NCBI GenBank assembly: GCA_964016885.1
Contig: OZ024743.1
Coordinates: forward strand, 214,768,001-214,832,000
DNA: 64,000 nt
Source of the DNA: Eledone cirrhosa
Taxonomy: Eukaryota
Reading direction: 5' to 3'
In this document: positions 1 to 61,239 of the stretch, in pieces
Layout: every line of letters starts with the position of its first letter
Position numbering within the stretch: position 1 is the stretch's first letter
Program-made: the position numbers and the translations under genes
Notes under the pieces: generated by a model
Told to the model about the DNA's origin: nothing
Databases searched by the model: none
What the model saw: only the letters and a program-made list of their open reading frames with translations

Positions 1-341
1 GAAAATATTCTGTATGTTTATAATAAACATTTTGAAGACCTAATCGCTATAGAATAGAATACGTCACGTATTACAATTAGATTCTCGATAAAAGCAAGGG
101 AAGTAACCTACGCGTTTCATTCTCATTAGAAATCTTCAGGATTACATATCCAGTGCTTTTATCGAGAATGACACAGCTAGAGACTTATAGAATACTTAGC
201 TGTGTACAGGAACTGGTTTGAAAGAGCGGTTGCCGGTCCGGCAGAAATTAGAAATTGGATTAAATGCTCTGAAATAGCGATATATATGTGATTAGCGATT
301 AGGTCTTCAAAATGTTTATTATAAACATACAGAATATTTTC
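1..341 (-). mobile_element. Short non-coding HHR-bearing (retrozyme-like / non-autonomous PLE-type) element with terminal inversion; runs off the window start
   Basis: 1-49 is the reverse complement of 293-341. It shares blocks (CATTTTGAAGACC; GAGCGGTTG..GGCAGAAATTA; GCTCTGAAATAGC.ATATATAT) with 17933-18485, contains a hammerhead and is followed by (TA)n. Confidence 0.65.
103..145 (-). ncRNA. Minimal type I hammerhead ribozyme
   Basis: Minus strand reads GTAATC-CTGAAGA-TTTCTAATGAGAAT-GAAAC-GC-GTA-GGTTAC. The core is intact, stem I is GTAATC/GGTTAC, stem III is the palindrome ACGCGT and the triplet is GUA. It is enclosed by a 15-bp stem (82-96/154-168). Confidence 0.75.
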
Positions 342-376
342 GAATATTCTATGTCTATCTTTTATATATATACATT

Positions 377-413
<37 letters not shown>

Positions 414-416
414 TTA

Positions 417-521
<105 letters not shown>

Positions 522-1090
522 GGAGAAGAAGTTTATGAAATGGAAATGCGGGCATACAGAATTTATTAGATAACAATTGTTTCTATAGTGTATGGGTTAC
601 CTATACCTCGCTATTTGAATAATATAACAATATTATCATAAACTGAAGGTACACTGTAAGCAAACACACCATGTCGTCAGACCTTTGTATTGGAATGACA
701 TGAAAATATTTTATACACTAGATAAAAGAGAAAGAAGAAGGTAGGAAGAGAAGGGGAAGAGGGAAGTGAGTAAGGTGGAGGGAGTCCTAGCATTTAAGAC
801 TGTCAGACTAGTAGAGATTGTAAGGAGAGAATGTTTTGGCAGCAGTTAGCTTAATGAGGCGTGTTTGGTTTGGCGGGGGAGGTAAATTCTTCTAGTGGTG
901 TTGTTCGGACAAAATTCAGTGAATGGGGTCAAAGTGGTACAAGTTACAGACAAGTTATTAGGGCTATTATAGTAGGTCATTTCTAAAGGGGTCCAGAAAA
1001 CAGTGTTTAGTACTATTATTATAGAAAGCCATATCTTGTGTATAAACATATAAAACAGAAATTTGCAAACGGTGGTGTAAAATGGTAACA

Positions 1091-3310
1091 TTATATGCAT
1101 TTAAAAAAAGAAAAATTCGTTTTCAAACGATGGTTCCAGTACAGTGAACGTTCAATTTTGCTGTTCAAAAGTTTGTTTACCGACGTTAAAATGCAGTATA
1201 TCTCCAAATTGCATAATTTGCAGAATCGCTGATTCTGCTTATATGCAGGCGCAGCTGCAATAATTTGCCAATGAAGGGAGAATGCTTGATTGTTCCTCTG
1301 GAGCTGCCAGGCTTTATCGGCGAGGGTTGTTACGGAGCGCATTTTCTCGTGCCTGATCGAAGATCGATGTTGGTATAGGCGAGCTTTGAAAGAAGTTGCG
1401 GTACATCCGACGTAATACCATTTGTTGGTTCCGGAATTTATTGTACATCGGTAGACAATATTGCGTGCTAGGCATTGGTTATTCAGTGGGCACGTACCTG
1501 GTTTGGTGCAGTTACAATTATTGTTATGTTTTGCAGTAGAATCCTGGATAGTTTGGTGGGGTTGTAGTTGCGTGTTAGTGCGTTGTATTTTGTTATGCTG
1601 GGGCGCTGAGTCATTAGGGATGTACTTATTTAGTATTGCTGAGTTGAGTTTTTTAATTAGTTGTTCTATGTTAGGTGCAGTGGAGTATGAGAGTCTAATG
1701 GTGCGCGAGTTAAAGTTTTTATAGTATTTATGTGAAGTTGTAAAATGTTTATTGATTAGTGTATAGAATTGTGAGATAATCTTAGTGCTAATAGAAGTAT
1801 TGTACACGGGGTTATACCATATGTACTCTCTACGTCTGACTCTATTTGCTGGTTTGAACCTATTAGTATGCCTATTGATGTGTGTGTGTGGTGCAATACT
1901 AGTTCGACTTAGATGTGTTTTATTCATAGTACTTATGTGGTTATCGTCTAGATATTCTATTTTCTCTCAGTAACCAGCTTTTCTAAGTGCTTCATTATAA
2001 TATTCAGCATGCTCGTTTAAGGTCTGCAAATTAGACGACAGTCGGGAGATCCTTATGGATATATTTTTAGGGATAGATTTAATAATGGAATGGGGATGGT
2101 TCGATTTTACATTAACGTACTTGAGATTTTCATTAAGTTTGTGAAATGGCTCTATATTACCGTTATTAAGGTTGAAGGTGACATCCAAGAAGTTGACCAC
2201 CTTAAGATTGTGTTCGAAGGTAATATTAAGCCCTAGTTCTAAGAGAAGTTTCCTAATATTTTTACGTCGCCATTCTATGTTTTCTTTGTTCATATTCTTG
2301 ACTAATAGAAGTGTATCGTCGCGGTATATTCCACCGTGGAGATCCGTAAATTCGCTCTGGAGTCTGTGGGCTATATAGATCCCAACCAGATCCGTGACCT
2401 CCGCCGAATCATTAGAACCCATCGTAATGTCGAATTCCGAGGGTCTATCTCTGCGGACCCAATAACTATTTTCAAAGTGCACTACTGTGCGTCTAGCTTC
2501 AAGTATAATATTAATTTCCTCGTTTGTGAGATCCGAGTTAGTCTTAGCGAAAGAGAGGGCCTTATGCAGGGTTTCGTGTGAAATAGAGGAATAGTATTCA
2601 TCTATATCGAATTGAATAAAAGAAGATTTGTTTTTGTCCCTAATGTTATTGAACCATCTTATTGCCTGTTGAGTATTACCCCATAATTTAATATCTACCT
2701 TAGCCTTAACTTGGGGGATAATACGATCTAATATGTACTTACTGATTCTACCTATATCGGACTTTGAAGGACATATTATTCTAATTTTAGGGTTAGTATC
2801 GAAGTTATCCTTATGGCCCTTCAGATTAAAAGTCGGTGTAGCTGGAGATAGGGGTACCGTTCTGTCGTAAATTTTCAGTTTCTTAACAATATCACATGCT
2901 GCGTTATTAATGTTGGTTAGTGTAGTTGCGTTTGTTTTTTGTACTTCCTATGTAATTCCTTACGTATAAAATTATTATATGTTTCTACATCCAGGGTGTA
3001 TAGATTCGATGTTTTGTCTGCCTTTATGATAATTCCTTTGGTATTCCTTAGGTTGTCGAGTAGAGTTTTAATATCTCGTTGCAGTTCATTTTTCCTTCCG
3101 TTCGTAAATTTGATTCAGGTTATCATTTTCATTAATTATCATATCCTGTTCGAAATAATCCAAAAGAGGGTTAGAGGGTGGGTTTTTGTAGGATTTGAAA
3201 CCAAACTTATCGTTGTTGGTGTCGGAAGTTTGTGTAATCCTTTTCCTATCGAAGTGGAAGGCCTTCCATCTAATCCGCCGAATAAATTCGTTGGTCCTTT
3301 GTATCATCTG
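1091..3310 (-). pseudogene. PLE reverse transcriptase + GIY-YIG endonuclease (frameshifted, with stops)
   Basis: RT motifs FDITMGSNDSAEVTDLVG, IYRDD and NFLDVTF; linker CNCTKPGTCPLNNQC (CxCx5C); EN motifs IVY..YVG.T..FKAR...H and CKLC..LLN. Split across ORFs 3086-3307, 1967-2482 and 1091-1927. Confidence 0.9.
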
Positions 3311-3598
3311 CTACTATAATAGCCCCAATAACTTGTCTGTAACTTGTACCACTTTGACCCCTTTCACTAAATTTTGTCCGAACAACACCACTAGAAGAAT
3401 TTACCTCCCCCACCAACCCTAACACGCCTCATTAAGCTAACTGCTGCCAAAACATTCTCTCCTTACAATCTCTACTAGTCTGACAGTCTTAAATCCTAGG
3501 ACACCCTCCACCTTACTCACTTCCCTGTTCCCCTTCTCTTCCTACCTTCTTCTTTCTCTTTTATCTAGTGTATAACATATTTTCATATCATTCCAATA

Positions 3599-3723
3599 CG
3601 AAGGTCTGACGACATGGTGTGTTTGCTTACAGTGTACCTTCGGTTTATGATAATATTTTTATATTATTCAAATAGCGAGGTATAGGTAACCCATACACTA
3701 TAGAAACAATTGTTACCTAATAC
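3599..3723 (+). ncRNA. Hammerhead-like motif with ~70-nt insertion in stem II (second copy on the minus strand at ~564-687)
   Basis: AGGT-CTGACGA-CATGGTGTGT...ATACACTATA-GAAAC-AATT-GTT-ACCT, present in both pLTR copies. Confidence 0.55.
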
Positions 3724-3872
3724 ATTCTTTATACCCGCATTTCCATTTCATAAACTTCTTCTCCATATTTTCTCCGGATTTTAAAACACACTTTATTATA
3801 CGTTGAGCAATCTACGACATCGGTTGACTCCATCCAATGCAACTACTTAGTAACATTGGAATACAAATTTAC

Positions 3873-3937
<65 letters not shown>

Positions 3938-3987
3938 ATTTATATTTATATATATATATTTATATTTATATATATATATATATATTT

Positions 3988-4024
<37 letters not shown>

Positions 4025-5639
4025 CATCTAATGCCGTGAGGATGATGAAGTGGAAAAAGTAAAGGAAAGAAGAAAGAGAATAGGAAACACGCAATGGCTA
4101 GGAAAGTAGTGAATATATCAACTGGTTGAAAGAGTGAAGGCTAATAGATTAATAGGCCATGTATTTGTATTGAAAAACAGATACACATACTGATTGATCT
4201 GATAAAACCTACGGGAGAGAACGATTGAAGCATATCTCCAAATGTGATTAAATCTGCTGGCATTAATAATGAATCAATATCCGACCAAAGTAAAAAGGTA
4301 TGTTTTGTTGCTGTCGGCACATTAATATGTTCGTACTACTGCTATACGTTTCTCCATGCTTTTCAGTTTGGATTAACTAAAATCAATGCTTTTGAACATT
4401 TCGATCTCAAATTATTTAGCTTCGTAGATAACGTCTTTTACTTGTTTATCTAATTATGTTTACTTTTTACTTTTTTCACTAGATTTTTTTTTTCGCAAAG
4501 AAAAGAAACATTCTTTTCCTTTATTGATGCTACGAGTTTAAAGTAGGTTCTGAATTCGTTAAATTCACTTTTAAATGTTTTTTTGGTCGAGAGCTGTATG
4601 GCATATAAACATCTTGATTTCGTCTCTAATCATGGCTATTTGATGGTTAACTTGTTATTATTTGATAGTTTGTGACGACAATGTCAATAACTATCAAGAG
4701 GTTATACATAATTTGTTTCAAAATTACGAGAAATCTGACAACATTTAACTCGTGATTGTCTAAATATCGACGTTTTAGAGAGTTTCTGAATGTCAATATT
4801 AATTTAAAAAAAAACGATTATCTTGTGTATGAATCTTTATATTACCTAACCAATGAATTTGAAGTGTATATATCTATAGGGGGTGAGGGATACAATGTTT
4901 AAATAAACCATAACTATTGCCCAGGGTAATATTTTAAAAATAGATTACTATAAGTAAAATAGATTATGCATAATAAAATCATTTAAGTACTGGATTTAAT
5001 GTCATATTTCAGTTAGAGCATCGACACAGTTCTATTTACTGATAATGTTATTAATTTTATATTCTTATTCAATTTATTTCCTTATAGCAATATTCGGAGA
5101 ATACCTTAATATCATAGCATGTTCTTTGGCACAAATCAATGATAATAAATCATACTATCAGTATAGTTTGTTTGGATAGTAGCGATGGTTCAATTAGCTG
5201 TTAGAACAAAAATTAATTACCATATAGGTGAAGAAAGAATCCGGATGCTTTAGGGACCATGTGGATATTAGTTTCTACCCTTGCTAATAGACACTGAGAA
5301 ATATCACATGTCCGAAAAGTAAGTTCATTCAAGTGAGTTTTGAGTAGATCGGAAAACAAATTGAATCACACTTAAAATCTAATTTCAATATTTAATAACA
5401 AATGTGTTTAGATATTTGTTTTCTATTATTTCATAATTTCTGAATATTTGCTGAGAATATTGCCATTTAATAAACATGGATATCTATAACATTCAGACTT
5501 CCCCCTGATACTGCTCTGGTACTTTTAGAACTATTACACAAAGAATAGATTTTGCGACTAGTAATAGATAAAAATATATAACATACAATGTGGTTGTCTT
5601 GAACAATTTCAAAAGCAACTATTGACTCCTTATGAAATC

Positions 5640-6215
5640 TACTCTTACTCTAATTACATTCCACCGCTAAAAGTAAAGGCTTTCCTAGAAAGTTTACCAC
5701 ACGCCTAAAGAAATCCGGTCATCTGCCCAAAGCGCGCCCTGGACGTGCCACTTTCGTTATTGCTCCCATCAAGGACCAGTAACAGAGCGTTCGTGTTGAA
5801 GAAGATCGAGGCGTTTCCTAAACAGCAGGGCACACTAGCTCTCATTCCTGGCCGACTAAGAGATGTCGATAATATGGGCTAGTGCGCGTGTCGGAAACTC
5901 AGGACTCACTGATAGCAGGCAAGCCAATATCTAGTAACCTCAGTTTCGTTTTTGTTGTTTTAGTCGTTGTCTGTGTGGCTACTGTTGCTGTTGCAGTTGC
6001 TACGGCTGGCTTAATTTCCACTATTGTTGTAGGTGTTGGTTCTCTTACTGTCGTTCTTGATGCTGTCGCTATTCCTAATCTTGCTGGTGACGGTGGTGTT
6101 GTTGGCGACGTCTTTAGTGTTGATGACAGAGGTGGCCACATTGTTCTTGATTCTCCCCAGCGCGTCGGCCGAATCAATTTCGTGACGCACGCTTTTTTCG
6201 AGATCTTTCCCGCTT
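5640..6215 (-). mobile_element. Decayed L1/Tx1-type LINE fragment (ORF1 tail / APE endonuclease start)
   Basis: Frameshifted minus-strand translation gives DI..AISES, SRPG..(V)ALLFRKRLD and PDFFRRVVNFLGKPLLLAVECN. The last aligns with PEFFKRSESFLGTSRSLLLMGDWN of the Tx1 element at ~35950-36025. Confidence 0.6.
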
Positions 6216-6887
6216 TGGCAAAATTGGAGGGAGGGGGGGGGGGGGGGGGGGTAATATCCATTTTCTAAAAACGAAAGTTTTACAGCATAATTATGCCCCT
6301 TTTGTAACACACGTTTTAGACAAAAAAAAATATAAATAGATGTACACGAAAACAAGTTACAGAACGTAAACAGGCGTGGCATATCTTTCAGAGACAAAAA
6401 TAATAGTCATACAAATAATAATAATAACGAAGTGCCACCTTCGTTTTAAAATGAACTTTGTTAACTAAGGCGTTCTTTACAACATTGAATTCATAATTCG
6501 ATGTAATTTCATGGGATTAATTTACTATATGCATTAAAATACACTTATATGTTCCATAAATTCGGATTTAATAACGTACAGCTTCATATATATATACATG
6601 GAATATACTATGTTCTCTGATTTTATTAATACAATCAAGTATTCTTCAGAGATTGTGTAATATTGATCTTCATTAATATTTCACAAAAAATAACACAAAG
6701 GTTTTGTTTTTTTAAATATATTCGTTGCTGTATCTGCATATTTATGCATGTTAGTATTTGAACATTCTTTCTGAAAAATTCGCCATTAAGACGAAATGGG
6801 TTTTTCTCGGTGTTCGATACGTATATATTTTCATATATACAGATACCTACCTTCATAGCTACCCCCCCCCCCCACACACACAACCAG

Positions 6888-6933
<46 letters not shown>

Positions 6934-6941
6934 CATGAATT

Positions 6942-6985
<44 letters not shown>

Positions 6986-8059
6986 GGAACATTATGTACG
7001 TATGCATAATGTAAGGAGTCTGCTTCAAGCAAATATACGTTATATAATTAGTTTATTCATTATTTATAATGTATGATATGCTTTTATATTTATTATATCA
7101 AACACGAATCATGAATAATTTATCTAGGAAGGAACCTTTATCAGATTATAATTCATATTATACTTAATTAGGTCTACTGGGTAAAACGTGTTTATTTTAT
7201 CTTCATCTATTTGTAATGAATTATCGTCTTTCATCTTTCTTTTAGTATTGTATGTTGAGAGAATGTGTTTTATGCTGATATATTACGGAATACCTACTTT
7301 CGTACACGATGTCACTTGGATAGCAGCGTTCGATACCACTGGTATATGTACTTAGATGATAATATCTTTCACATATTCACAATGAAATATTAAAAACCTG
7401 ACCTTGTTATGTCGACTAATATATTATTTGCATATAAAATGTTTTGTTGTTGCAGAAAAGAAGACGTAACTGTAATTGCAAGACTTATTTTATATAAACA
7501 CAAGACACCCACGTAAACAAGCTCCCACCCCCCATATACACACAAAAACACACATTCACACATACATGCACACGTAAAATACACACAAACATATACATAT
7601 ATGTGTATGTAATACGTATTTCTGCAATACCAGATTTTTAAATATTTTAATCCCAATAAATACATTCGATTTAACTGGTTACAGTAAAGCAGTGACCTCC
7701 AACAATAGTCATAACTCATGTTGGTTACAACTACACAATGTATCTTAAAGACAATTCATAAAAGATAATCGAATTTATGATGTTAATTGCTAAACTGTAA
7801 TGAAAGGTATCTCGTCTTGTTAAAGCGTTTGTGTCTCATTTATAATTGTTTAATAGTTTAACAAATACATGTACTCACACTTTGATTGGAGAGTGAATAT
7901 ATACAAACATAGCTTATTTTAATATAATCGCAGAATAGAAACTGATAGCGTCTGTATTTATATATTAGTAAATTATTTTTTATAAAACAAAAACAAAAAA
8001 AAACATTTAATTATTTTGACTGAGAATAAAACATTAGTGGAGAGAATACTTTTTGCTCG

Positions 8060-8990
8060 GTTTCTAAACATGACCACAACAGTGTTCTCTGATGTACAAG
8101 AGGTGCATCTTGGGCAGAGTACTAACTCGTCGAAGTCCGACGTCACAAGAGCAATTACAGACTTCAAAAGTAGCAAGGTCATTGTGGAGGATAAAGTTCT
8201 CCATGAGGATGTTAAAAGGCTCAAATAATGAAGGCATACTTTGCTGAATCATGTAGTTCACATTAACCCGATATGCAGTGGCAGGAATAAAACTCTGTTC
8301 TGCGAAGATGGAGACACTCGTAATTGAAAGGAAGAATGTGTAGTGCACTCTATATGTGAATGTCTACTGAATGTGGTGAAGAAGTTCAAATATCTCGGGG
8401 TTGTTTTCCCGAGTGATTGAAGGGTGGGGCTCAACTAATTGGATGAATTCCTGGAGCTTGTACAGTAATGCGGAAGCTTCAGGATTAAATAATTGGAAAA
8501 GTGTAGTAAGCCACACTCGCTATCTTCAATTCGGTATTCGTGTTAAGCCTTGCCTATGCTCATGAATGCCGTGTAATGGCCGAAGGAATTCGATCGCGAA
8601 TACAATCAGCCTAAATAGAGTTTCTTCACAGGGTCTTTGGAGTAACGTTACCCGATAGAGTGCGTAGCTTTGAGATCATGAAATCACTAGAGGTAGATAT
8701 GTCATTTCTTCAAATTAAGAGAGTACAGCTCTCATACTACAGCTATATGGTTATGATGTTTCAGGTATGAATCATTGCAAAGATTTTATAGAATAAACAT
8801 CTGACAGGAGACCCGATGATAGTCCTTGAGCAAGAAAGTTGCATACCATTCATTAACGCAGGTGTTTTCATTTTGGGATCCAGTCGGATCAATTGCCGAC
8901 GGTTGCTTCTGACTGGAAGCGCTGGAAAGCGGGATTTGATACTATGCCTTCATGGCATGCCCAGGTGTAAGTGGGCGAAGAAGAAGGGGA
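8060..8990 (+). mobile_element. Old, internally deleted RTE-clade LINE remnant
   Basis: DVTRAITDFKSSK...EDKV resembles EV..AI..LKSGKA.GED; VVKKFKYLGVVF; 3' end AAGTGGGCGAAGAAGAAG shared with the remnant at 49520-49915. Confidence 0.6.
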
Positions 8991-10194
8991 GAACATATTT
9001 ATTTCTATGATTTTTTGTATTTTCAATGCGAATATTTATTTAAAAAAAATTTAAAATGCAATTTCTAAGAGTTTAATATAATATAACATCTTTGATTAGC
9101 CCAAACGTCTGGTTCATTTATGAACCTAAGCTTCTACTTTCAACACTTTGTTTGGAGCTTTTGTAGAGTCTCTACAATTTCATAGCTTTAGAATATTGTA
9201 CATAAATATAGAACATATCTAAGCATAATTACATTTCACTGTAAATTTGAAGTGTTGAAACGCATGCCAAACATAATATTTCAATTACAAAAAATTATTT
9301 TAAATTATAATGGTATCTGCAATAATGTTACGGAATAATATCTCTTTGCATGACCATGTAGTAATACATCTGTTGGGTATTACAAAGAATTTCCGCTTTC
9401 TGTTAATATGAAGATCAAAGGCAACGCTGTATCCAAATTGTCAGATCACGTAACAAACCTATTGCATATTTTTAATTAGTTCTAAATGAACAGACACTAT
9501 CCTCAGCAGTTTACCAGTAGTGACAAACCGTCGAAGTTTATGACAAACATGTCATTCTCCGGAGAATGTTGTCGGCTATATCCTGCAAGATCCTTGTACA
9601 GAATCCCCAGTCAATATAAGAGCGTTCTGCTGCACGTATATCTAAACAGTTTCCATAATTCGCTTATATTTGAGAGACGAATAGCTTAATTAGTACAAAT
9701 TCGGAGAAGGTATAATATCTCAATTTATCGCTATATTCGTATGTCACTTGCGCTATGTAATTCTCTCAGCTTCCCTATAACTTTCCTTGGTATATTTCTT
9801 ACACTCCCCACAAAAAAAGGTTTATATATGCAATAAGTATTTAGTTTACATTTTTCCGCAGCGTACTAAGCATATATATGTATATATATACATTTAAAAT
9901 GTAGATGATCGCTGGTATTAAGTTCTCCGACATATGATTATATATATATATACAAGTAAAAATTAGCGAGAATCGAATTTCAGCCCATGAATTAACGAGA
10001 AACACTTTTGAGTTGTGAGGCAAGCGCTCTATAATTCAAATGAATTAGAGCTTACAACTTACGTTAAAGGCCAAACACACTGAGTTGGTGGTTAAACTAA
10101 TCATCCACACAGCGAAAATTCGATCTCCTATTTCGGGTCAAACAGATATACAGATATAAAAATATATGAAAATATAAATGTTTGAGGCTTACCC

Positions 10195-10226
<32 letters not shown>

Positions 10227-10324
10227 CTGTTTGAGGCTTACCCATATATATATATATGCTTAGTGCTGTATGCAGCGAGAAAATTAAAACTAATTTCAAT
10301 TTACAGAAAACTTTTTTATGGGGA

Positions 10325-10392
<68 letters not shown>

Positions 10393-10634
10393 TTGCGAGG
10401 TTTTTTTATATGAAATCGTGTGTTGAAACAAATATTGTTATACTTGGGGAGAGTCATATTTGTGTAATATTGCCAGAATTAATAACAGAACACACTCACT
10501 GTTTGGTTGGTTTTCGCTTCTCGCTGTCTTTTATATCGGTAATCTAACTTACTCGGTCCTCAATGTTGCCATTGACTGACCGACGGTCAAAAATAATACA
10601 CATACAATATAGACACAAACACATATATATAGTT

Positions 10635-10678
10635 TATCATAAATCTTTCGTTGCACATCTGCAACATCGTCAGTGGTG
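10635..10678 (-). ncRNA. Minimal type I hammerhead in PLE 3' pLTR (slightly mutated)
   Basis: CTGACGA-T-GTTGCA-gatg-TGCAAC-GAAAGATTTA. Stem II is a perfect 6 bp; stems I and III are imperfect. Confidence 0.65.
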
Positions 10679-10915
10679 TTATATTTTCCTCCTGTTGTGT
10701 TGTATGTCTACGCCATTTTTATTCAGTCAGTCTATATATTTATTTATTTATTTGCTTGTTTGTTTATTTTATTTCGTCTTCTTTGCGCATGCGTTTGCGT
10801 GTGTGTATAGTTTATGTTTGCTGTGTGATGGGTGACTATTGTGTGTTTATGTGCTTGTTGTTATTGTGCTTGTGTATGTATTTATTTATTTATTTATCTT
10901 ATTTTATTTACTTAT

Positions 10916-13900
10916 TTATACTTCGCTTCGGTCAGTGTTGTTTGTTTGGGTGTTGTGGTTATTCCATTCATTCTTTCTGTTTAGCTTTGGTCTTCTAATT
11001 TCTATTTCACTGGCCTCTCTGATTTGCCTATCTGCTGGGTCATTTCTATGTTTAGATATTATTCTAATTTCTATGTTGTCTATGTTACCGTCATGTTGTT
11101 GTCTAGCATGTTCGTATAGTACTGACACGTGTTTTCGTCCTTTTAGTTCCCCCCAGTGTTGGTCTATCCTTTCACCTATGCTACGAGCTGTCTCACCTAT
11201 GTATGTTGTTGTCATGTTTCTGCAAGTACCCTCTGTACATCTTATGCTATAGACTACGTTTCTAGTTTTACAGTGTATCCGGGGGTTCACCTTACATATG
11301 ATACATTTCCTATTGGTACACTGGGTGTTCTTAAAAGGCTATGTTTTGCTGATCAAGGATTTTATGGTGGTTCCTGGCTTTTCTACCACCTTTATTTTTA
11401 AGTGGGTCTTTCTCAGGGCCTTTCTACACTGGTTAGCTAATTTCCCTCCAGGGGTGGCGTCCACAAACATGACACTCTGGTATCTCTGGTTGTCGTACCA
11501 TGAGGTGGCTTTCCCTATCTTATGTCTAGCCCTATCTAAGCTATTCCATGATTTGCTCCTGTATAATGGGCAAATTCCTTTCATGTCCAGTTCTATGGGA
11601 GTCTTATACATTTCCATGGCTCCTTCGTATACTCTGACTCTGTCTCTTTGGTTGTAGCCAGAGAACTGCATGCGGTTGATGAAGTGTTGGATGTGTCTTT
11701 CCATTTCTGTTGGGTCGCACATGCGGGACACATTCTTCATCACTCGTACCAAATCTGCGATCAGAATATTAAACTTAGCACTACTGGACATTGCTGAGTT
11801 TTTGAGTATCAGGTATTTCGAGGCCATGGGTTTAGCATAGTGTGAGTGGAGAATTTGGGCGCTCTCGTCTATAGTGTTAATCCAGAGTTCTGTGTCTAAT
11901 ACGGGTAGTCTATTGTTAGGGTGTTTGGAAGGGAGGTCGATAGTTACAGTTATACTCTGGTGTATGGAATTAGCTATCTGCTTGATGCTTTCCATCGTGC
12001 TACGTTCTAAATCAAACTTGTTAGTGCTCTCTAGTGGGGGTGTTCTTATAACTATATTGATATCGTCTACATAACGAGAGTACATGATGAGGTCTATGGA
12101 TCTTTCATTAAGGAGATCTTTAAGTCTCCTTTCCCAACATACCATGAAAAGGTTGGCAACATCACCAGCTATGCTGACGCCGATGGCTGATCCCTCATTT
12201 TGGGTGTAGATTTTCTCGTTGAACTTAAATATGTGGCCCTTTATGGTAGTTTTGATACTAGCCCATATTGCATGTGCGACCATTTTTCTTACCTGATCAT
12301 TGTTTTGGGGTGTCCGTATAGCTTTGGGCCACCCAAATCCACCTTCCCATGAGAGTCGTTTTTGCCATTGAGGTTATGGTGGGGGTCTACCTCTTATAGG
12401 TCTACTAGGGCAGAAACATCTAAGGTCATGGCTGTCTAGGTAGTCAGTGTCGTAGGTAAGTCTAAGTAGGAGGCCCAGTTCGTCTGTGTCGACGTCGCAG
12501 AACTCCACTTCACTCTCAATGATCATCTCCACACATCTTTTCACAGCAAAATCAATGTTAATGGATGGGTACAGTGACACCACATCCAAGCTGCCTATTA
12601 CGCAGTTGGATAGGCTCCTGTTTTTGTTGTTGCACTCACTGATTCTGCTGAGGAGATCCTCTGTACTGTCACATACATCTGGGGACATCTTGATTATGGG
12701 GCGTATAACCATTGAGAGGAAGTAGGAGATCCTGTAGTTGCTAGCTATATTAGCTCCGCATACGGGTCTTGTTGGTGGTCCTGTTGTCGGGTCGTGAACT
12801 GTCTTGTGGTCTTTACGGAGCCCATACAAGGGTGGTATGCCATTGTTAGACGCATGGAAGTTATTGGCAGTGCGTCTGCTTGGCTTTAGGATGTCAGTCC
12901 ACATCATCATGTGAGCGTTGAGGATTTTTTCTCTCCCAACTTGTGTTTGTTGCGCAATTTCGCTCGTGTTGGTGATATGGTGTTGCATAGTCTCGATGTA
13001 GTTCGGCATGCTATCTATTGACGTCCTACCAGACTTATCCGTGGGTAGACACACTACCTCACCATCCCTTGTGCGCTGCTTGAGGCTAACCAAGCCTTCT
13101 ACAGGTTTCCTCCCAAGTTGTTGGGCCTCTGGTCTGCTCTGTCTCTTAGTATACCTGTCTACTATTTGTCTAATCGTATTTCTAGCTATGGTGAACTGTG
13201 CCTCTGTCTCGTCATCTATTTGTTGTGGTATGCAAACTCTTTTATTAAAGGGTAACCTCGTAGGATAGATATTACCCATCTTATATGTTTTGTCAGCTGG
13301 GTTGAAAAATTGTTTCTCTAAGGGGTTGTCATTATATCTATCGTCATAGTTGTGTGTGTTGCTATTATTGTTATCAGGGTGGTTGTTGTTGTTTCTATCA
13401 TTAGCATTATTATTATTATTATGTTTGCTAGATGTATTGTTGTTTACTTCACCGTTATTGTTGTTGTTGTTACTGTTATTTCTACCATTGTGGTTGTTAC
13501 TTTTATGATGTTTCTTATTTTTGTTGTGTCTCTCATTGATGTTGCTACATGTACTATTTCCATTATTACCACTGTGGTTATTGTTGTTGTTCGTATTGTT
13601 ACCGTTATTACTACTGTGGTCGTTGTTTCTGTGGTTAATGTTTCTATTATTATTATTATTGTGGTTGTTGTTGTTCTGTCTATCGCTAGTATTATTACCA
13701 TTATCACTATTTCTCACTTTCCTGCTATTGTTATAGTTATGGCTGTTATTTCTATACTCAGAGTTATTGTTTATATTACTACTACCGTTATTATTGTTGT
13801 TGTTTACCTTTGCATTCCAACGTATTTTTGTGAAACACTTTTCCAGCTCCGTTTTGCACTCCATAGGGTTAATCTTTTTGTAGATGGCAAATTTTGGTGG

Positions 13901-14257
13901 TAGCCGCAGAATTTGTTGTTCTTGCTCACTGATTAAAGTGTTCCCATAGATATTTACTGTGTGGTCATTGGTAAATTCTTCCGGTAGTTTTACATCAGTC
14001 ATACGGATATTGTTGATGTTATCTGGGTATTTTTGAGAATATTCGATTTTCCTTTCTTGTAGTTTTTTTTTATTCATCCATTCTAATTTCTTATTGAAAT
14101 GCCTATTGCATTCGTTTCGAGCGTATTTCGTTTCACGTCGGATGACGCTCATGAAGTTATCTCTCTCGTTTGCTGTGATGAGATTTCGGATTTCCTTACC
14201 GTTAATGCGTTTTTGTCTGTAGAGTGCGTTGACTTTTGTGTATGTTGTTCTTTTCAT
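10916..14257 (-). pseudogene. PLE RT + GIY-YIG ORF, broken into three frames, with Asn-rich insertion
   Basis: TDKSG, GLRKDHK, RPVCGA, SLDVVSLYPSI, GSAIGVSIAGDVANLFM, RYVDD, PVLDTELW, Cx4Cx2C linker, NVVYSIRC..C..YIGETAR..ERI..H and RQIREA..I..PKLN. Confidence 0.9.
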
Positions 14258-14541
14258 ATTAACTGTTATTGTGTTTTAGTCGTTCGGCTTGTGTGTTGTT
14301 CAATAATAAATTATTTACTTGTTTTGATATGTTTGTCGTCTATGTTTTGGAGGAAACACAGTGTTTTAAGAAGCGGATTTGTTCTGTTGTTATTGTAGTT
14401 TTTATATAACAGAAAACAGTGTCTTTCAATAACCTTTCAGCTTGGCATAAAAGACAGCGAGAAGCGAAAACCAACCAAACAGTGAGTGTGTTCTGTTATT
14501 AATTCTGGCAATATTACACAAATATAACCCTCCCCAAGTAT

Positions 14542-41354: not shown

Positions 41355-42507
41355 CCTGCGTGTGACCAGCTCGGAATGGGCAAGGGAGATAAATGCGTAA
41401 GTCCGAAAAGTTTTTAGTTGAAAAATAAAATTACAAAGAATCAGTCCGGAGACTTGTAGTTATTCAATAGGTGTTTGGCGACGGGTGGACAACGTGTGAA
41501 AAATTCATTTCTCGTGTTTAGGCAATCACTATTACGTAATCTCATTAGAATAGTTATTATTTCTTCAATACATAAGCCACACGTAGGATTTCTCTTTGCG
41601 TATGGCTTGGACTTAGTGATGGCTTTCCATTGAATAGAGTAGTCTATACATGAGTCCTTGAGGGACCATAAGTAGCTCGCGAGTTTCGTGGATGAACCAT
41701 CTGTCCAGGTAACTGAGGGTAGACTGGTGGTTCAGGAAACGTTCCTTAAATCGGCCCTCCGCCATGCCGACATAGGATTTGACCTTCTGAGGTTCGTTTG
41801 GTCGGTTGGAAGTGACCACAGCTTCGTAAATTACAGCTGGTGTCTTGCATTGCTGTTGAAGAGGGCAAGCTTCAGGCTTACGGCAAGAGCACCCTGGTGG
41901 GGTGTTGCTCCTAGGGCTACTGGTGATGTGGGCCTTCATGTTCTTAGCGCAGGATTATCCTAGTTTGTTCATCCACGAAACTCGCGAGCCACGTATGGTC
42001 CCTCAAGGACTCAAATATAGACTACTCCATTTAATGGAAGCCATCACTAAGTCCAAGCCGAAAACCGACGTGTGGCTTATGTATTGACGAACGAATAACT
42101 ATTCTAAAGAGATTACGCAATAGTGATTGCCTAAACACGAGAAATGAATTTTTCACACGTTGTCCACACGTCGCCAAACACCTATTAAATAACTATAAGG
42201 TTCCGGACTGATTCTTTGTAATTTTATTTTTCAACTAAAAACTTTTCGGACTTTCGCAGATATCTCCCTTAAATATCTCGCACGCATTGTAGAATTCCTT
42301 GTGTGAAATGACCGGGTTTCTGCGCATCTGCGTTCGTACGGCTGTCCTTCCTGTTCCTATAACCCTGCCCATTCCGAGCTTAGGATCCGCTAAGGTGAAA
42401 CAATTGTTCTCGGTATGGTGAACTAACTGTTGTGTAACCACTTCTACCTAACTCTTCCCATGGACTGAGTGCTCTACCATTACGGATATTACCTTCCGGT
42501 GTTCAAC

Positions 42508-50129: not shown

Positions 50130-50520
50130 AAGAGTTTAGATTTTATCTCATACATAATCAAAGGTACCAGGCAGAGACCTTATACAGTACACAAAAACAA
50201 ACAAGCCAGACCCCGTGAAAAATCTGGTGATATGGTACAGGACAGATTTAAACAATTATTATTTATGCAATTCTCTTTATTTAGGCATTCCAATATGAAA
50301 TCCACCACAGCGCTGGCAAAATTGGTCTGGCAATTAACGAAAATGGAGTACCGTATAACATTACACGTGTCATACAAAAATAGAAGGAAGAGATGCCCTC
50401 TCTGCTTCAATAAGACATTTAGGATGTTGTAGGTTTTAATAATCAACGGAAACTTAACTTTAACTCCAAGTCGGAGATATGTAGAAATATCCTGTCACCG
50501 GGCATGTAAAATCCTTCATT
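50130..50520 (+). mobile_element. Decayed Hydra-like PLE GIY-YIG remnant
   Basis: RFKQ..SLFRHSNMKSTTALAKLVWQL..RCPLC..LNSKSE..CH, collinear with the EN of 1091-1927. Confidence 0.65.
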
Positions 50521-57526: not shown

Positions 57527-58345
57527 GCACCATCCCGCGTGCTGTGGGTTATAATTGTGCTAACGACAGCTGCGGTAGCGTAGGTAACAACGTAGGCAGC
57601 AACAATGATAGCCTTACCGTGGGAAATAGACGGAACCGCGACAGAAATTGCAACTGTCGCGACAGAGGACGCTGCCCCCTTAGAGGATACTGCTTGACTG
57701 ATAGGGTTATATATAGATGCACTATTACGAGCCACAATAGCGTTAAACATTATATAGGGGCCACCTCCGGCCCGTTCAAAATTAGGTTTCGAACACATCT
57801 CCACTCTTTCACAAATAGAAAACTAAGGCACTCCACTTCGCTCGCGGACTACATCACATCACTAAAGGACTTAAACATCAACTTCTCCACGCACTGGTAG
57901 ATTGTCGGCAGGGCTGCACCGTACAACTTCAAGAGGAAATGCGATCTTTGCCTCATGGAGCTCTACCACATCATATCTGCACCCCACGAGCTCATCAACA
58001 GCAGAGCTGAAACAGCGATAAGTTTAACACATCGCTTAAAAATATCCTTCTTTAGATGGGTTAAGAATGAAGAGTGAAATACTACACTGGATCTCCCTGC
58101 AACAAGTCATAACGCCGCGGCGGGCAGGCGCAGCAAAATAACACCCAGAAAACAATCCTTGCATACCAGACCCAGCCTCAGACAAACGGATGCGGCAAAA
58201 AAAAAAAAAAAAAAATTATCCGGGAAAGACTGCCCTAACACCAGCCAAAGTTACCTCCCTTGACCTGCTGCAAAATAAAAAACAAGATATTTTTGCGAGC
58301 AATGAATCTTGATGTAGATTTAACCCCCAAAACTCTTTCCGAACT
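57499..58345 (+). mobile_element. 5'-truncated Hydra-like PLE (GIY-YIG + 3' UTR)
   Basis: CNCRDRGRCPLRGYC..VIYRC..YIGATSGPFKIRFRTH..TSLA..W*I..AAPY..CDLC..ELINSRAE..HR. Confidence 0.85.
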
Positions 58346-58347
58346 AT

Positions 58348-59795
58348 ACAAGTAAACACCCCAACCATAGATTACCTGTACTAGACACAGAGCTCTGGTT
58401 AGATACCATTAACAACAAAAAACAAATCCTCCATTCCCATTATGCCAAACCCATGACTTCCAAACATCTGATCCACCGAAACTCGGCTGTTTCGGACCAT
58501 ACCAAAATCAACATACTGATTGCGGATTTGGTACGGGTGATGAGAAATGTGTCCCGCATGTGCAACCCCGAAGAACTAGAGAGACACATACAACACTTTA
58601 TCCACCGTATGCAGTTCTCTGGCTACAATCAGAGAGATAAAATCAGAGTGTATAGAGGAGCCAGAACCAAATGGGAAAAAATGGTAAATAATGAGATAAA
58701 TGGGACCTGCCCCTTGTATAGGAGCAAATTTTGGAATAGAATAGAAAGAACTAGGAACAAGGCTAATAGAATAAACTCATGGTATGATAGCAATAAATAC
58801 CAGAGTGTAGTGTTCATCAATACAACCCCTAGAGGTGAATTAGCTTACAAATTTAGAAGGGCCCTAAATAAACATAAACTCAACATTAAGATAGTAGAAC
58901 GACCAGGTACCTCCGTAAAAACACTTATTAGCAAGACATACCCTTATCAAAGACCCACATGTATAGATAAGAAATGTATAACCTGTAAAATAAGCCCCAG
59001 TATTAACTGTAAAACTAGAAATGTAGTGTATAGCATAAGATGTACTGAAGGACAATGTAGAGACAAAAATATAGTGTACATAGGTGAAACAGCTCGTAGT
59101 GTAGGGGAACGGATAAATGAACACTGGCGAGACCTTCAAGATAATAAAGAATCATCTGTACTCTACCAACATGCTAAGATAGAACACAAGGGTAAATTAG
59201 AGAACATAGAAATAAAAATAGAATCTACACACAGAAAAGACGCAATGTTTAGACAAATTACAGAGGCAATAAACATAAAAGAATTACAACCAAAATTAAA
59301 TAGAAAATATGAGTGGAACAGCAACATCACAACTTACAATTAATGAAAACACACACAGACATAGAACAAACAACCAACCAGTAACATGTAAATAAACAAA
59401 TAAATAAATGAACATAAACACACACAGACACCCGGATGTGGCGCATGCGCAGACTGAGCACACAACACACACACAGAAACAAAATGGCGTAGGACAGAAC
59501 AAAGGAGAGGCACAGAAACAAAGAAAGGAATCCCCAGTCACTGAAGAGGTCACAGAGTGTGTGACGAAAGAACTATGACTATATATAAACAACTATCTGG
59601 TTGTGGAACCAACCCACCAACCAGAAATTTATAAATTTGTAAATTTATGAATTTATAAATATATAATAAATTGAAGTGAAAGCAACTGGTGCGTGTGTTT
59701 CTTATTGGCAACATGACCCTCCCAAAGTATAACAATATCGGTTTCAACACACGATTTCAGATAAATAATCTTGCTAAACAAATTCAGAAACGAAA
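58348..59795 (+). mobile_element. 5'-truncated Nematis/Neptune-like PLE (RT thumb + GIY-YIG + pLTR)
   Basis: SKHPNHRLPVLDTELW onward, ORF 58453-59343. Shares long motifs (LIADLVRVM, HIQHFI, CKTRNVVYSIRCTEG) and the 3' end with 10389-14548. Confidence 0.9.
59536..59580 (+). ncRNA. Minimal type I hammerhead ribozyme in PLE pLTR
   Basis: AGTCA-CTGAAGA-G-GTCAC-agagtgt-GTGAC-GAAAG-AA-CTA-TGACT. Stems I and II are perfect; triplet CUA. Confidence 0.75.
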
Positions 59796-60227: not shown

Positions 60228-61239
60228 ATAGTAATAATAATAAATTTGAAAACTAAAATCCAAAGAGGGCTCGATAAGGATATATATATATCAAATATAT
60301 AAGAACCGTAGAACAAATATTTATTAAAATAAACGATTAACTTTAAGCAAATAATCACTGCTTTCACCCTTAACGGGATCTTCTGAAACTAACAAAGTCA
60401 ATCTGTGAACTCAAAAGTAAATATTTCAAAAAACGTTACAACCAGAGGAAGACAGGAAGACGATACTTTGGTTCGGGGAAATGTTTCCTGGCAAAAGACG
60501 GGAAAAAACGAATATAATACGTCATTATTTGCAACGGTGAAAAACAATTACACGCAAAGACAAATTATTTTCGTAACCCTTTAAGAAGGAATATGACGTC
60601 ACTTTCAGCTTATATCTGGAGTCTAAAAGACAACCACACCCAATATAAGTTACACTGGGAGATCCTAGATTAGGCTAGATCGTATAACGGAAATAAAAGA
60701 CCATGTGACCTCTGCGCCCCTGAGGACCTGGAAATACTCTACGCCAAAGACCACATCTTAAACAAATAATCTGAGGCAATTTTGGCTTGTAAATATAAAT
60801 TGCACAAAACTTTCCTGTATTACAGCACCACATTATCCCCTAACTTTTAGTACGAACTATACGCGGATATTTTACGTCTTGATGTGGTAGCTAAGTATAT
60901 GTTATGTTTATACCATTACTTATTTGTATAGGTAGTATATATTACCTGTATGTTTTGTGAAGGTACATATAATTTCACGTACGTATATTTGATTGTATAT
61001 GTTATGGCGTAAATATTATATATTCTGGTACATATGCTTTTGGTTATGTGTATACGTGAGTTTTGTGTCTGTATGAGTATGTGGGTTCGTATGTAAGTAG
61101 GGTGTGTGTATATGTCTACTTTGTGTTTTGGTTGACGTAGTCTCCGAACATATGTGTATTTACATGTAGGTATGTGTGTGCGCTTGTTATATACGTATTT
61201 ATTTATTTATTTACGTTTATCTAATTATATGTATACACG

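What the first reader, a model, noticed from the sequence alone, without database searches (positions are those of the whole stretch)
3599..3723. Split (bipartite) hammerhead with exchangeable stems in a Hydra-like PLE pseudo-LTR
Seen in both pLTR copies (stems best preserved in this one): CTGACGA plus one stem II strand sit in the loop of hairpin A (CGAAGGT 3599-3605 / ACCTTCG 3636-3642). The other stem II strand plus GAAAC-AATT-GTT sit in hairpin B (GTATAGGT 3680-3687 / ACCTAATAC 3715-3723). The loops are complementary (ATGGTGTGT/ATACACTAT) and both hairpins close with AGGT/ACCT. Inference: loop-loop pairing followed by strand exchange of the identical AGGT/ACCT segments would assemble an active HHR (GUU site). 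That would be a conformationally switched or multi-junction ribozyme that standard descriptors would miss because of the ~70-nt stem II insert.
Basis: partly seen in the sequence, partly recalled or inferred. Interest (0 to 1): 0.78.

Follow-up and report, generated by a model that had tools for sequence, protein, structure and literature searches.

The report
Long-armed hammerhead ribozyme in Penelope retroelements
This is the predicted self-cutting RNA of a common jumping gene, and one of its arms is about four times longer than in the published relatives I could read and likely folds as one long hairpin rather than the two-part switch first proposed; related jumping-gene families in the same genome carry similar long arms.

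Summary
The element is a Hydra-type Penelope-like retrotransposon. The 'bipartite switch' is not supported. The insert is predicted to fold as one continuous hairpin (z -3.7) that forms first as the chain grows. Hairpin A owes its length to a near-private base (G3600, 2 of 58 copies) and is not conserved. Hairpin B is a real competitor in this family, but it would hide the cut site. The feature is not local: 1,836 core-spacer-core matches with 50-80 nt spacers against 4 controls, in several families, five or more tied to Hydra-like genes. Their arms show compensatory changes (17 of 29 and 6 of 21 pairs), most share a G-R-N-U/N-A-G-C internal loop, and A(A/T)TAAA follows stem I in 120 of 152 copies. 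A weaker, post hoc signal suggests the element's 3' tail can pair with that loop. Cleavage is untested and no RNA run was available. Verdict: new variant of a known kind.

The parts
518..975 (-). 3' pseudo-LTR of the Hydra-type PLE, sense to the ORF; ends in (TA)n
   Evidence: 96% inverted repeat of 3311-3768
563..687 (-). Second copy of the long-armed hammerhead (core starts at 680; stem I has one G-U)
1091..3310 (-). 5'-truncated RT + GIY-YIG ORF with RWK, DKT and CxCX5C motifs; broken by frameshifts near the start and one in-frame stop
3311..3877 (+). Inverted pseudo-LTR (to 3768) plus the start of the next unit's 5' UTR, then (TA)n
3602..3605 (+). Stem I 5' strand AGGT
   Evidence: paired with 3715-3718 in 232 of 232 cells over 58 copies
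3606..3612 (+). Catalytic core CUGANGA (N7 = C here; C, T or A in subfamilies)
   Evidence: intact in 98 of 100 listed rows of a flank-anchored search
3613..3702 (+). Arm II, 90 nt: unpaired C3613 and A3702; proximal helix 3614-3622/3693-3701; TTAC/GTAA; middle helix 3633-3642/3676-3684; G-GTT/TAG-C internal loop; apical AT-rich hairpin
   Evidence: MFE -25.9, z -3.70, 0 of 200 shuffles as good; homologous arms covary
3703..3714 (+). GAAA core, palindromic stem III (AACAATTGTT 3705-3714) and GUU triplet; predicted cut between 3714 and 3715
   Evidence: same layout as Hydra hammerheads in File S2 of PMC8557442
3715..3718 (+). Stem I 3' strand ACCT
3719..3724 (+). Poly(A)-signal-like AATAAA of the family (AATACA in this copy)
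   Evidence: 48 of 58 copies; 120 of 152 copies across clusters, against 0-2 in control windows
3675..3738 (+). Alternative hairpin B, extended (3675-3690 with 3712-3719 and 3730-3738); would hide the cut site
   Evidence: insert-to-downstream duplex P = 0.007 in this family
3748..3755 (+). 3'-tail segment TCATAAAC, complementary to GTTTATGA 3643-3650 in arm II (tentative long-range helix)
   Evidence: not compensated in subfamilies of this family

Best explanation
It is a type I minimal hammerhead motif in the pseudo-LTR of a Hydra-type Penelope-like retrotransposon, whose arm II is extended to 90 nt and is predicted to fold as one continuous hairpin, and which likely cuts at GUU (3714/3715) as a dimer through its palindromic stem III. 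Shown: the element's structure, the conserved core, the long arm in hundreds of copies, compensatory changes in homologous arms of related families, and AATAAA directly behind stem I. Inferred: arm II folds first during transcription and brings the two core halves together with no strand exchange; two copies (tandem pseudo-LTRs about 3 kb apart on one transcript, or two transcripts) pair through AACAATTGTT, possibly helped by the element's own protein; cleavage just upstream of AATAAA would release a unit-length RNA without the poly(A) signal. The extra length likely carries a conserved internal loop used as a binding or docking site.
For: Core conserved with only N7 varying. H17 is never G in 147 sequences whose search pattern left it free (T 80, A 52, C 15). 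Rod is the MFE, z -3.7, and is complete at probability 0.99 by 3702. Majority sequences of 10 of 10 multi-copy clusters fold as a rod closing on the core. Covariation on plain MAFFT alignments: 57-62 nt arms, 17 of 29 pairs changed on both sides, 79.8% of cells paired against 27-41% for slid controls; 78-82 nt arms, 6 of 21 pairs, 88.4% against 30-40%. The endonuclease of this family groups with those of the 79-81 nt families at 100% support. Of 12 shared variants in arm II, 7 fall at unpaired or bulged places of the rod, 3 keep a pair and 2 break a marginal pair of the printed fold; one further change (G3679A, counted among these as a break against the majority partner) restores a U-A pair in the three aligned copies that carry it. 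U17, unpaired bases beside stem II and a short palindromic stem III are usual in published Hydra hammerheads (U17 in 10 of 26 rows).
Against: No cleavage or probing data. Covariation comes from sister families; within this young family there is almost none, and this family's arm aligns only loosely to its sisters. With long flanks the rod loses to hairpin B (family mean of the proximal helix 0.94 with short flanks, 0.17 with 200 nt upstream), and single old copies of several families do not favour the rod in full context. The core strand can also pair with the GUU side in the MFE. C3613/A3702 is a mismatch where canonical hammerheads have G-C. The searches fixed the core and stem III, so their invariance across families is partly by construction.
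Confidence: 0.66

Rival explanations
1. Timed off-switch or tail capture: the rod folds first and allows a cleavage window; the later-made 3' tail then invades arm II (hairpin B here, or pairing to the conserved internal loop), silencing the ribozyme or holding the cut 3' piece in place.
For: B rises to 0.68 at full pseudo-LTR length in a typical copy. Insert-to-downstream duplexes beat shuffles at P<0.05 in 5 of 13 clusters, against 1 of 13 for the upstream flank. The loop segment ranks first or second among all 9-nt windows for pairing to the tail in 7 of 17 clusters; own pairs beat permuted pairs in 1, 1, 6 and 16 of 120 permutations in four representative sets.
Against: Post hoc, on related families. 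B-type pairing over the cut site is significant in only 2 of 8 groups. Loop-to-tail pairing reaches P<0.05 in only 5 of 17 clusters, and in this family two subfamily changes break it uncompensated while two become G-U.
Confidence: 0.15
2. One reading: hairpins A and B form first, kiss through their loops and exchange AGGT/ACCT strands to build the active ribozyme.
For: A+B lies within 2.5 kcal/mol of the rod and dominates in this copy with 30-50 nt flanks; A forms transiently in this copy before 3690 is made.
Against: Depends on G3600 (2 of 58 copies); one subfamily change at 3640 breaks A but sits at the rod's bulge; A is absent from other families; the rod replaces A before B can form.
Confidence: 0.05
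3. The core is catalytically weak or silent in this family; the long arm is kept as a protein-binding or reverse-transcription signal.
For: C-A mismatch next to the core, U17 able to pair with A14 in the palindrome, strong competing hairpin B. PLE hammerheads show low activity in vitro (PMC4209133), and core mutants did not affect insertion in vitro for the anole element (PMC11167929).
Against: The core is kept across families that share only about 50-65% of letters over the motif, with N7 and H17 varying as the hammerhead rules allow.
Confidence: 0.11
4. The insert is a spliceosomal intron whose removal leaves an ordinary short hammerhead.
For: GT and AG words lie in the insert; an intron end meets the hammerhead in Drosophila virilis Penelope (PMC4209133).
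Against: Pairing and compensatory change run through the whole insert; in families with 57-62 nt inserts an intron would take nearly all of arm II (inference); no joint removing the insert in contigs of unrecorded kind, which is weak.
Confidence: 0.03

Closest known systems
Hammerheads of Hydra-clade PLEs (Craig et al. 2021, PMC8557442, File S2)
   Same: Type I, stem I mostly 4-7 bp, unpaired base beside stem II, short palindromic stem III, frequent U17, place in the 3' end or pseudo-LTR, (TA)n targets.
   Different: Loop 2 is at most 10 nt and arm II about 25 nt in the 26 Hydra rows; here 90 nt, and 57-82 nt in related families. The longest listed loops (29-34 nt) are in non-Hydra spike-moss elements marked as deviating. 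The stem III word of these families was not found in that supplement.
Minimal hammerheads of metazoan PLEs (Cervera and de la Pena 2014, PMC4209133)
   Same: Short helix I, larger helix II, extra base after position 9, dimer-type helix III, pseudo-LTR location.
   Different: Helix II is 6-8 bp there with a conserved G10.1-C11.1; here a multi-segment rod with internal loops and a C-A mismatch beside the core.
'HHR_half_core' Naiad cases (PMC8557442, Methods)
   Same: Core halves separated by more than the usual spacer (35-50 nt).
   Different: Reported without a structure and in another clade; here the spacer is a covarying hairpin and stems I and III are complete.
Discontinuous hammerhead of mammalian Clec2 mRNA (Martick et al. 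2008; not held, recalled)
   Same: A large insert between the ribozyme halves; near a 3' end and poly(A) signal (recalled).
   Different: Insert lies in another arm, in a host mRNA, not in a retroelement (recalled).
Pseudoknotted hammerheads (Perreault et al. 2011, PMC3088659)
   Same: A tail pairing with a loop of the other arm would match the tentative loop-tail helix.
   Different: There the pairing joins stems I and II near the core; here it would form 30 nt up the arm, compete with part of the rod, and is unproven.

Membership tests
Hammerhead ribozyme, type I | Core CUGANGA ... GAAA ... UH | tested here: met
   H17 never G in 147 sequences
Hammerhead ribozyme, type I | Stems I, II, III around the core, ends in stem I | tested here: met
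   stem I 232 of 232 cells, proximal stem II 515 of 522; covariation in related families
Hammerhead ribozyme, type I | G10.1-C11.1 pair closing stem II | tested here: not met
   C-A in 55 of 68 copies; unpaired bases there are also in published Hydra and PLE-X1 motifs, so it fits the PLE minimal type, not the canonical one
Hammerhead ribozyme, type I | Match to an Rfam hammerhead model | tested here: not met
   no hit at E<=10 in 1-12000; the short hammerhead at 103-145 was missed too, so the miss is not specific to the long arm
Hammerhead ribozyme, type I | Self-cleavage | not testable with these tools
   needs a bench assay
PLE minimal (dimer-type) hammerhead | Short palindromic stem III, location in pseudo-LTR, sense to the ORF | tested here: met
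   AACAATTGTT; direct repeats about 3.0 kb apart flank the ORF in L031 and L032
Hydra clade of PLEs | RWK, DKT and CxCX5C motifs, C-terminal GIY-YIG | tested here: met
   against the description
Hydra clade of PLEs | (TA)n insertion, short single-ORF unit | tested here: met
   unit about 3.0 kb, at the upper edge of the published size
Hydra clade of PLEs | Placement among published Hydra proteins in a tree | not tested
   tree held only session loci; Pfam gave no family
   A above shuffles in 0 of 8 groups, B in 2 of 8

The most novel reading that the evidence does not exclude
Several Hydra lineages in this genome have turned arm II of the hammerhead into a regulatory RNA domain: a rod with a conserved G-R-N-U/N-A-G-C internal loop that captures the element's own 3' tail about 15-18 nt before the element's end. 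The ribozyme would cut off the poly(A) signal while arm II keeps hold of the severed tail, positioning it for ligation or for the start of reverse transcription, and thousands of such ribozymes would be invisible to current descriptors.
Probability: 0.2. Interest if true: 0.75.

Novelty: new variant of a known kind. Interest (0 to 1): 0.52.

Why it matters
The role of hammerheads in Penelope-like elements is open. Families whose ribozyme carries a long, covarying arm with a shared internal loop, and AATAAA right behind the cut, give concrete things to mutate: whether cleavage removes the poly(A) signal, whether the element's protein binds the arm, whether the tail folds back. It also shows a blind spot: descriptors that cap loop 2 would miss at least 1,836 core matches plus several hundred of this family in one genome, so PLE families scored as lacking a hammerhead deserve a second look.

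Tried and rejected
Rfam scan: no hammerhead. Sequencing runs: no RNA holder listed; three runs of one sample, kept as contigs, were laid and gave only variant letters, so expression, cleavage ends and splicing were not tested. Pfam: no family for the protein. Metagenome scan: 4 loci, of which L236 has a 14-nt arm, L237 a short arm split over the contig ends, L235 none visible, L238 only an unlinked motif; no long arm outside this genome was found, on a very small sample. The first tree mislabelled L177, whose best hit belongs to a neighbouring element; redone with L085; deep nodes are unsupported, so no claim on single or repeated origin. Hairpin A as a family feature: rejected. Compensation of the loop-tail helix inside this family: looked for, not found. 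Before clustering, 16 of 30 clusters (singletons or pairs that looked like deletions, chance spacers or short-arm motifs) and copies with deleted inserts were dropped; searches used only the 58-59 copies with a 90-nt insert. Literature: searches found no description of long-armed PLE hammerheads or of AATAAA behind the cut; Lunse et al. 2017 (PLE hammerhead variants) and Martick et al. 2008 are not held, and repeat databases were not searchable, so prior description cannot be excluded.

Full report
Context. The finding lies in an inverted pseudo-LTR (3311-3768, 96% identical to 975-518) of a Penelope-like element inserted in (TA)n. The ORF runs on the minus strand from 3310 to 1091, is 5'-truncated and broken, and has the RWK, DKT and CxCX5C motifs that Craig et al. 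give for the Hydra clade (PMC8557442 section 11). Full-length copies carry the motif in direct repeats about 3.0 kb apart, sense to the ORF. The plus-strand motif here is therefore the inverted copy; its sense twin is at 687-563.

Observation. Every listed segment is present. Flank-anchored searches find 773 and 659 copies with 0 controls, and the catalytic letters are intact in 98 of 100 listed rows in each; N7 varies between C, T and A. The features that look odd for a canonical hammerhead are ordinary for Hydra: U17 in 10 of 26 rows, unpaired bases beside stem II, short palindromic stem III (File S2 of PMC8557442). What is unusual is arm II: 90 nt, against loops of at most 10 nt in those rows.

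The switch. Hairpin A is 7 bp only because of G3600, found in 1 of 32 copies, 2 of 58 and in none of the covering contig depth of three runs of one sample. C3723, which lengthens B, is in 2 of 58 and breaks the family's AATAAA. The insert folds by itself into one rod, -25.9 kcal/mol, z -3.70, in which ACCT 3636-3639 pairs with a second AGGT at 3678-3681. Over 3594-3730 the rod fold is -29.5 and A+B -27.0. Over 58-59 copies A never exceeds a mean probability of 0.06; as the chain grows the rod is at 0.99 by 3702. Against my reading: in this copy A+B reaches 0.64-0.79 with 30-50 nt flanks, and B alone reaches a family mean of 0.29-0.71 with long flanks. B covers the GUU triplet, so it would inhibit. 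Across eight family groups A-type pairing is never above shuffles and B-type pairing is in two.

A wider feature. Patterns joining the two core halves over long spacers give 223 matches against 0 controls (41-70 nt), 28 against 0 (71-86 nt), 1,836 against 4 (50-80 nt, looser flank) and 123 against 32 for other stem III loops. From 173 distinct sequences, 152 were kept and fell into 18 clusters at 80% identity; majority sequences of 10 of 10 multi-copy clusters fold as a rod closing on the core. On plain MAFFT alignments of natural copies, a rod drawn by hand from those folds has 17 of 29 pairs changed on both sides in 24 sequences with 57-62 nt arms (79.8% of cells paired; slid controls 27-41%) and 6 of 21 in 14 sequences with 78-82 nt arms (88.4%; 30-40%). 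Related sequences inflate the shuffle control and the pair-count measure was not extreme (52 and 41 of 500 shuffles as high), but an independent consensus fold recovered ten pairs, seven with double changes. Hydra-like genes lie upstream of the motif in the 79-81 nt families, the 61-62 nt families and a 63-nt family; for the 57-59 nt groups D and E the link is weak or unseen. The endonuclease of this family groups with those of the 79-81 nt families at 100% support; the 61-62 nt families lie apart, with deep nodes unresolved. A Hydra-like metagenome element has a 14-nt arm.

Shared details. Most long arms share an internal loop with G-R-N-U on the 5' strand and N-A-G-C on the 3' strand (here G3642-GTT and TAG-C3676); the 63-nt family lacks it by eye. 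H17 is never G in 147 sequences whose pattern left it free, and A(A/T)TAAA follows within 22 nt in 120 of 152 copies, against 2, 0 and 1 in three control windows. Noticed afterwards: the loop's 5' strand is complementary to a segment near the element's 3' end (3643-3650 with 3748-3755). It ranks first or second among all 9-nt windows in 7 of 17 clusters and reaches P<0.05 in 5 of 17; own pairs beat permuted ones in 1, 1, 6 and 16 of 120 permutations. In this family's subfamilies it is not compensated. I treat it as a lead.

Mechanism. Shown: structure of the element, conserved core, long arm, covariation in related families, adjacent AATAAA. Inferred: the rod folds first and closes the junction; two copies dimerise through AACAATTGTT, as reported for PLE hammerheads (PMC4209133; review PMC6765202), perhaps helped by the element's protein as for the anole element (PMC11167929); the cut at 3714/3715 separates the RNA body from the poly(A) signal; hairpin B may damp activity in this family. 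Confidence 0.66; no cleavage or RNA data exist here.

What I read. PMC8557442: passages, section 11, supplement parts 1-2 of 59 and one search in it. PMC4209133: parts 1-2 of 4. bioRxiv 10.64898/2026.07.22.740005: part 1 of 5, no supplements. PMC11167929, PMC6765202, PMC10085705, PMC3088659: passages. Lunse et al. 2017 and Martick et al. 2008: nothing; statements on the latter are recalled. Searches found no long-armed PLE hammerhead; the unread Lunse paper and its supplements may bear on this. Family labels A-F are mine.

Verdict. A real hammerhead motif of a known kind in a new form, common in this genome; the proposed bipartite switch is mostly an effect of two rare bases in this copy. New variant of a known kind; interest 0.52.

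Noticed in passing
window 103-145, minus strand: Short ordinary type I hammerhead (14-nt arm II, 6-bp stem I, GTA site) in an inverted-repeat piece at the window's left edge, likely another PLE end; missed by Rfam.
   Followed up: partly
window about 42370-42410, plus strand: Degenerate short hammerhead with the same stem III word, next to a Hydra-like endonuclease fragment (41546-41894) and the inverted repeat 41382-41592/42060-42270.
   Followed up: no
window 10916-14275, minus strand: A second, broken PLE with long RT ORF and C-terminal GIY-YIG of another type (Neptune-like by recall); its end matches 58354-58663 in inverted orientation.
   Followed up: no
window 50247-50405, 57664-58050, 60587-60823: Further Hydra-like endonuclease fragments, 33-38% identical to this element's.
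   Followed up: no
L085, L094, L099, L102, L108 (79-82 nt families): A second invariant internal loop, GUAU opposite UAGAC, resembling a bulged-G (loop E) motif by recall; stem I in these families often has a G-G mismatch at its second position.
   Followed up: partly
L210, L218, L221, L228, L233: Another long-armed group with up to 13-bp perfect proximal helices, different stem III loops and no AATAAA; L218 has a Hydra-like endonuclease upstream.
   Followed up: partly
genome-wide: The AATT-loop stem III palindrome is shared by many divergent families (1,836 matches against 123 for the alternative loops that pattern allowed), so cross-family dimers are possible in principle.
   Followed up: no
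L037, L043, L044, L047, L049: Short hammerheads lying head-to-head with their own inverted copy a few bases apart.
   Followed up: no
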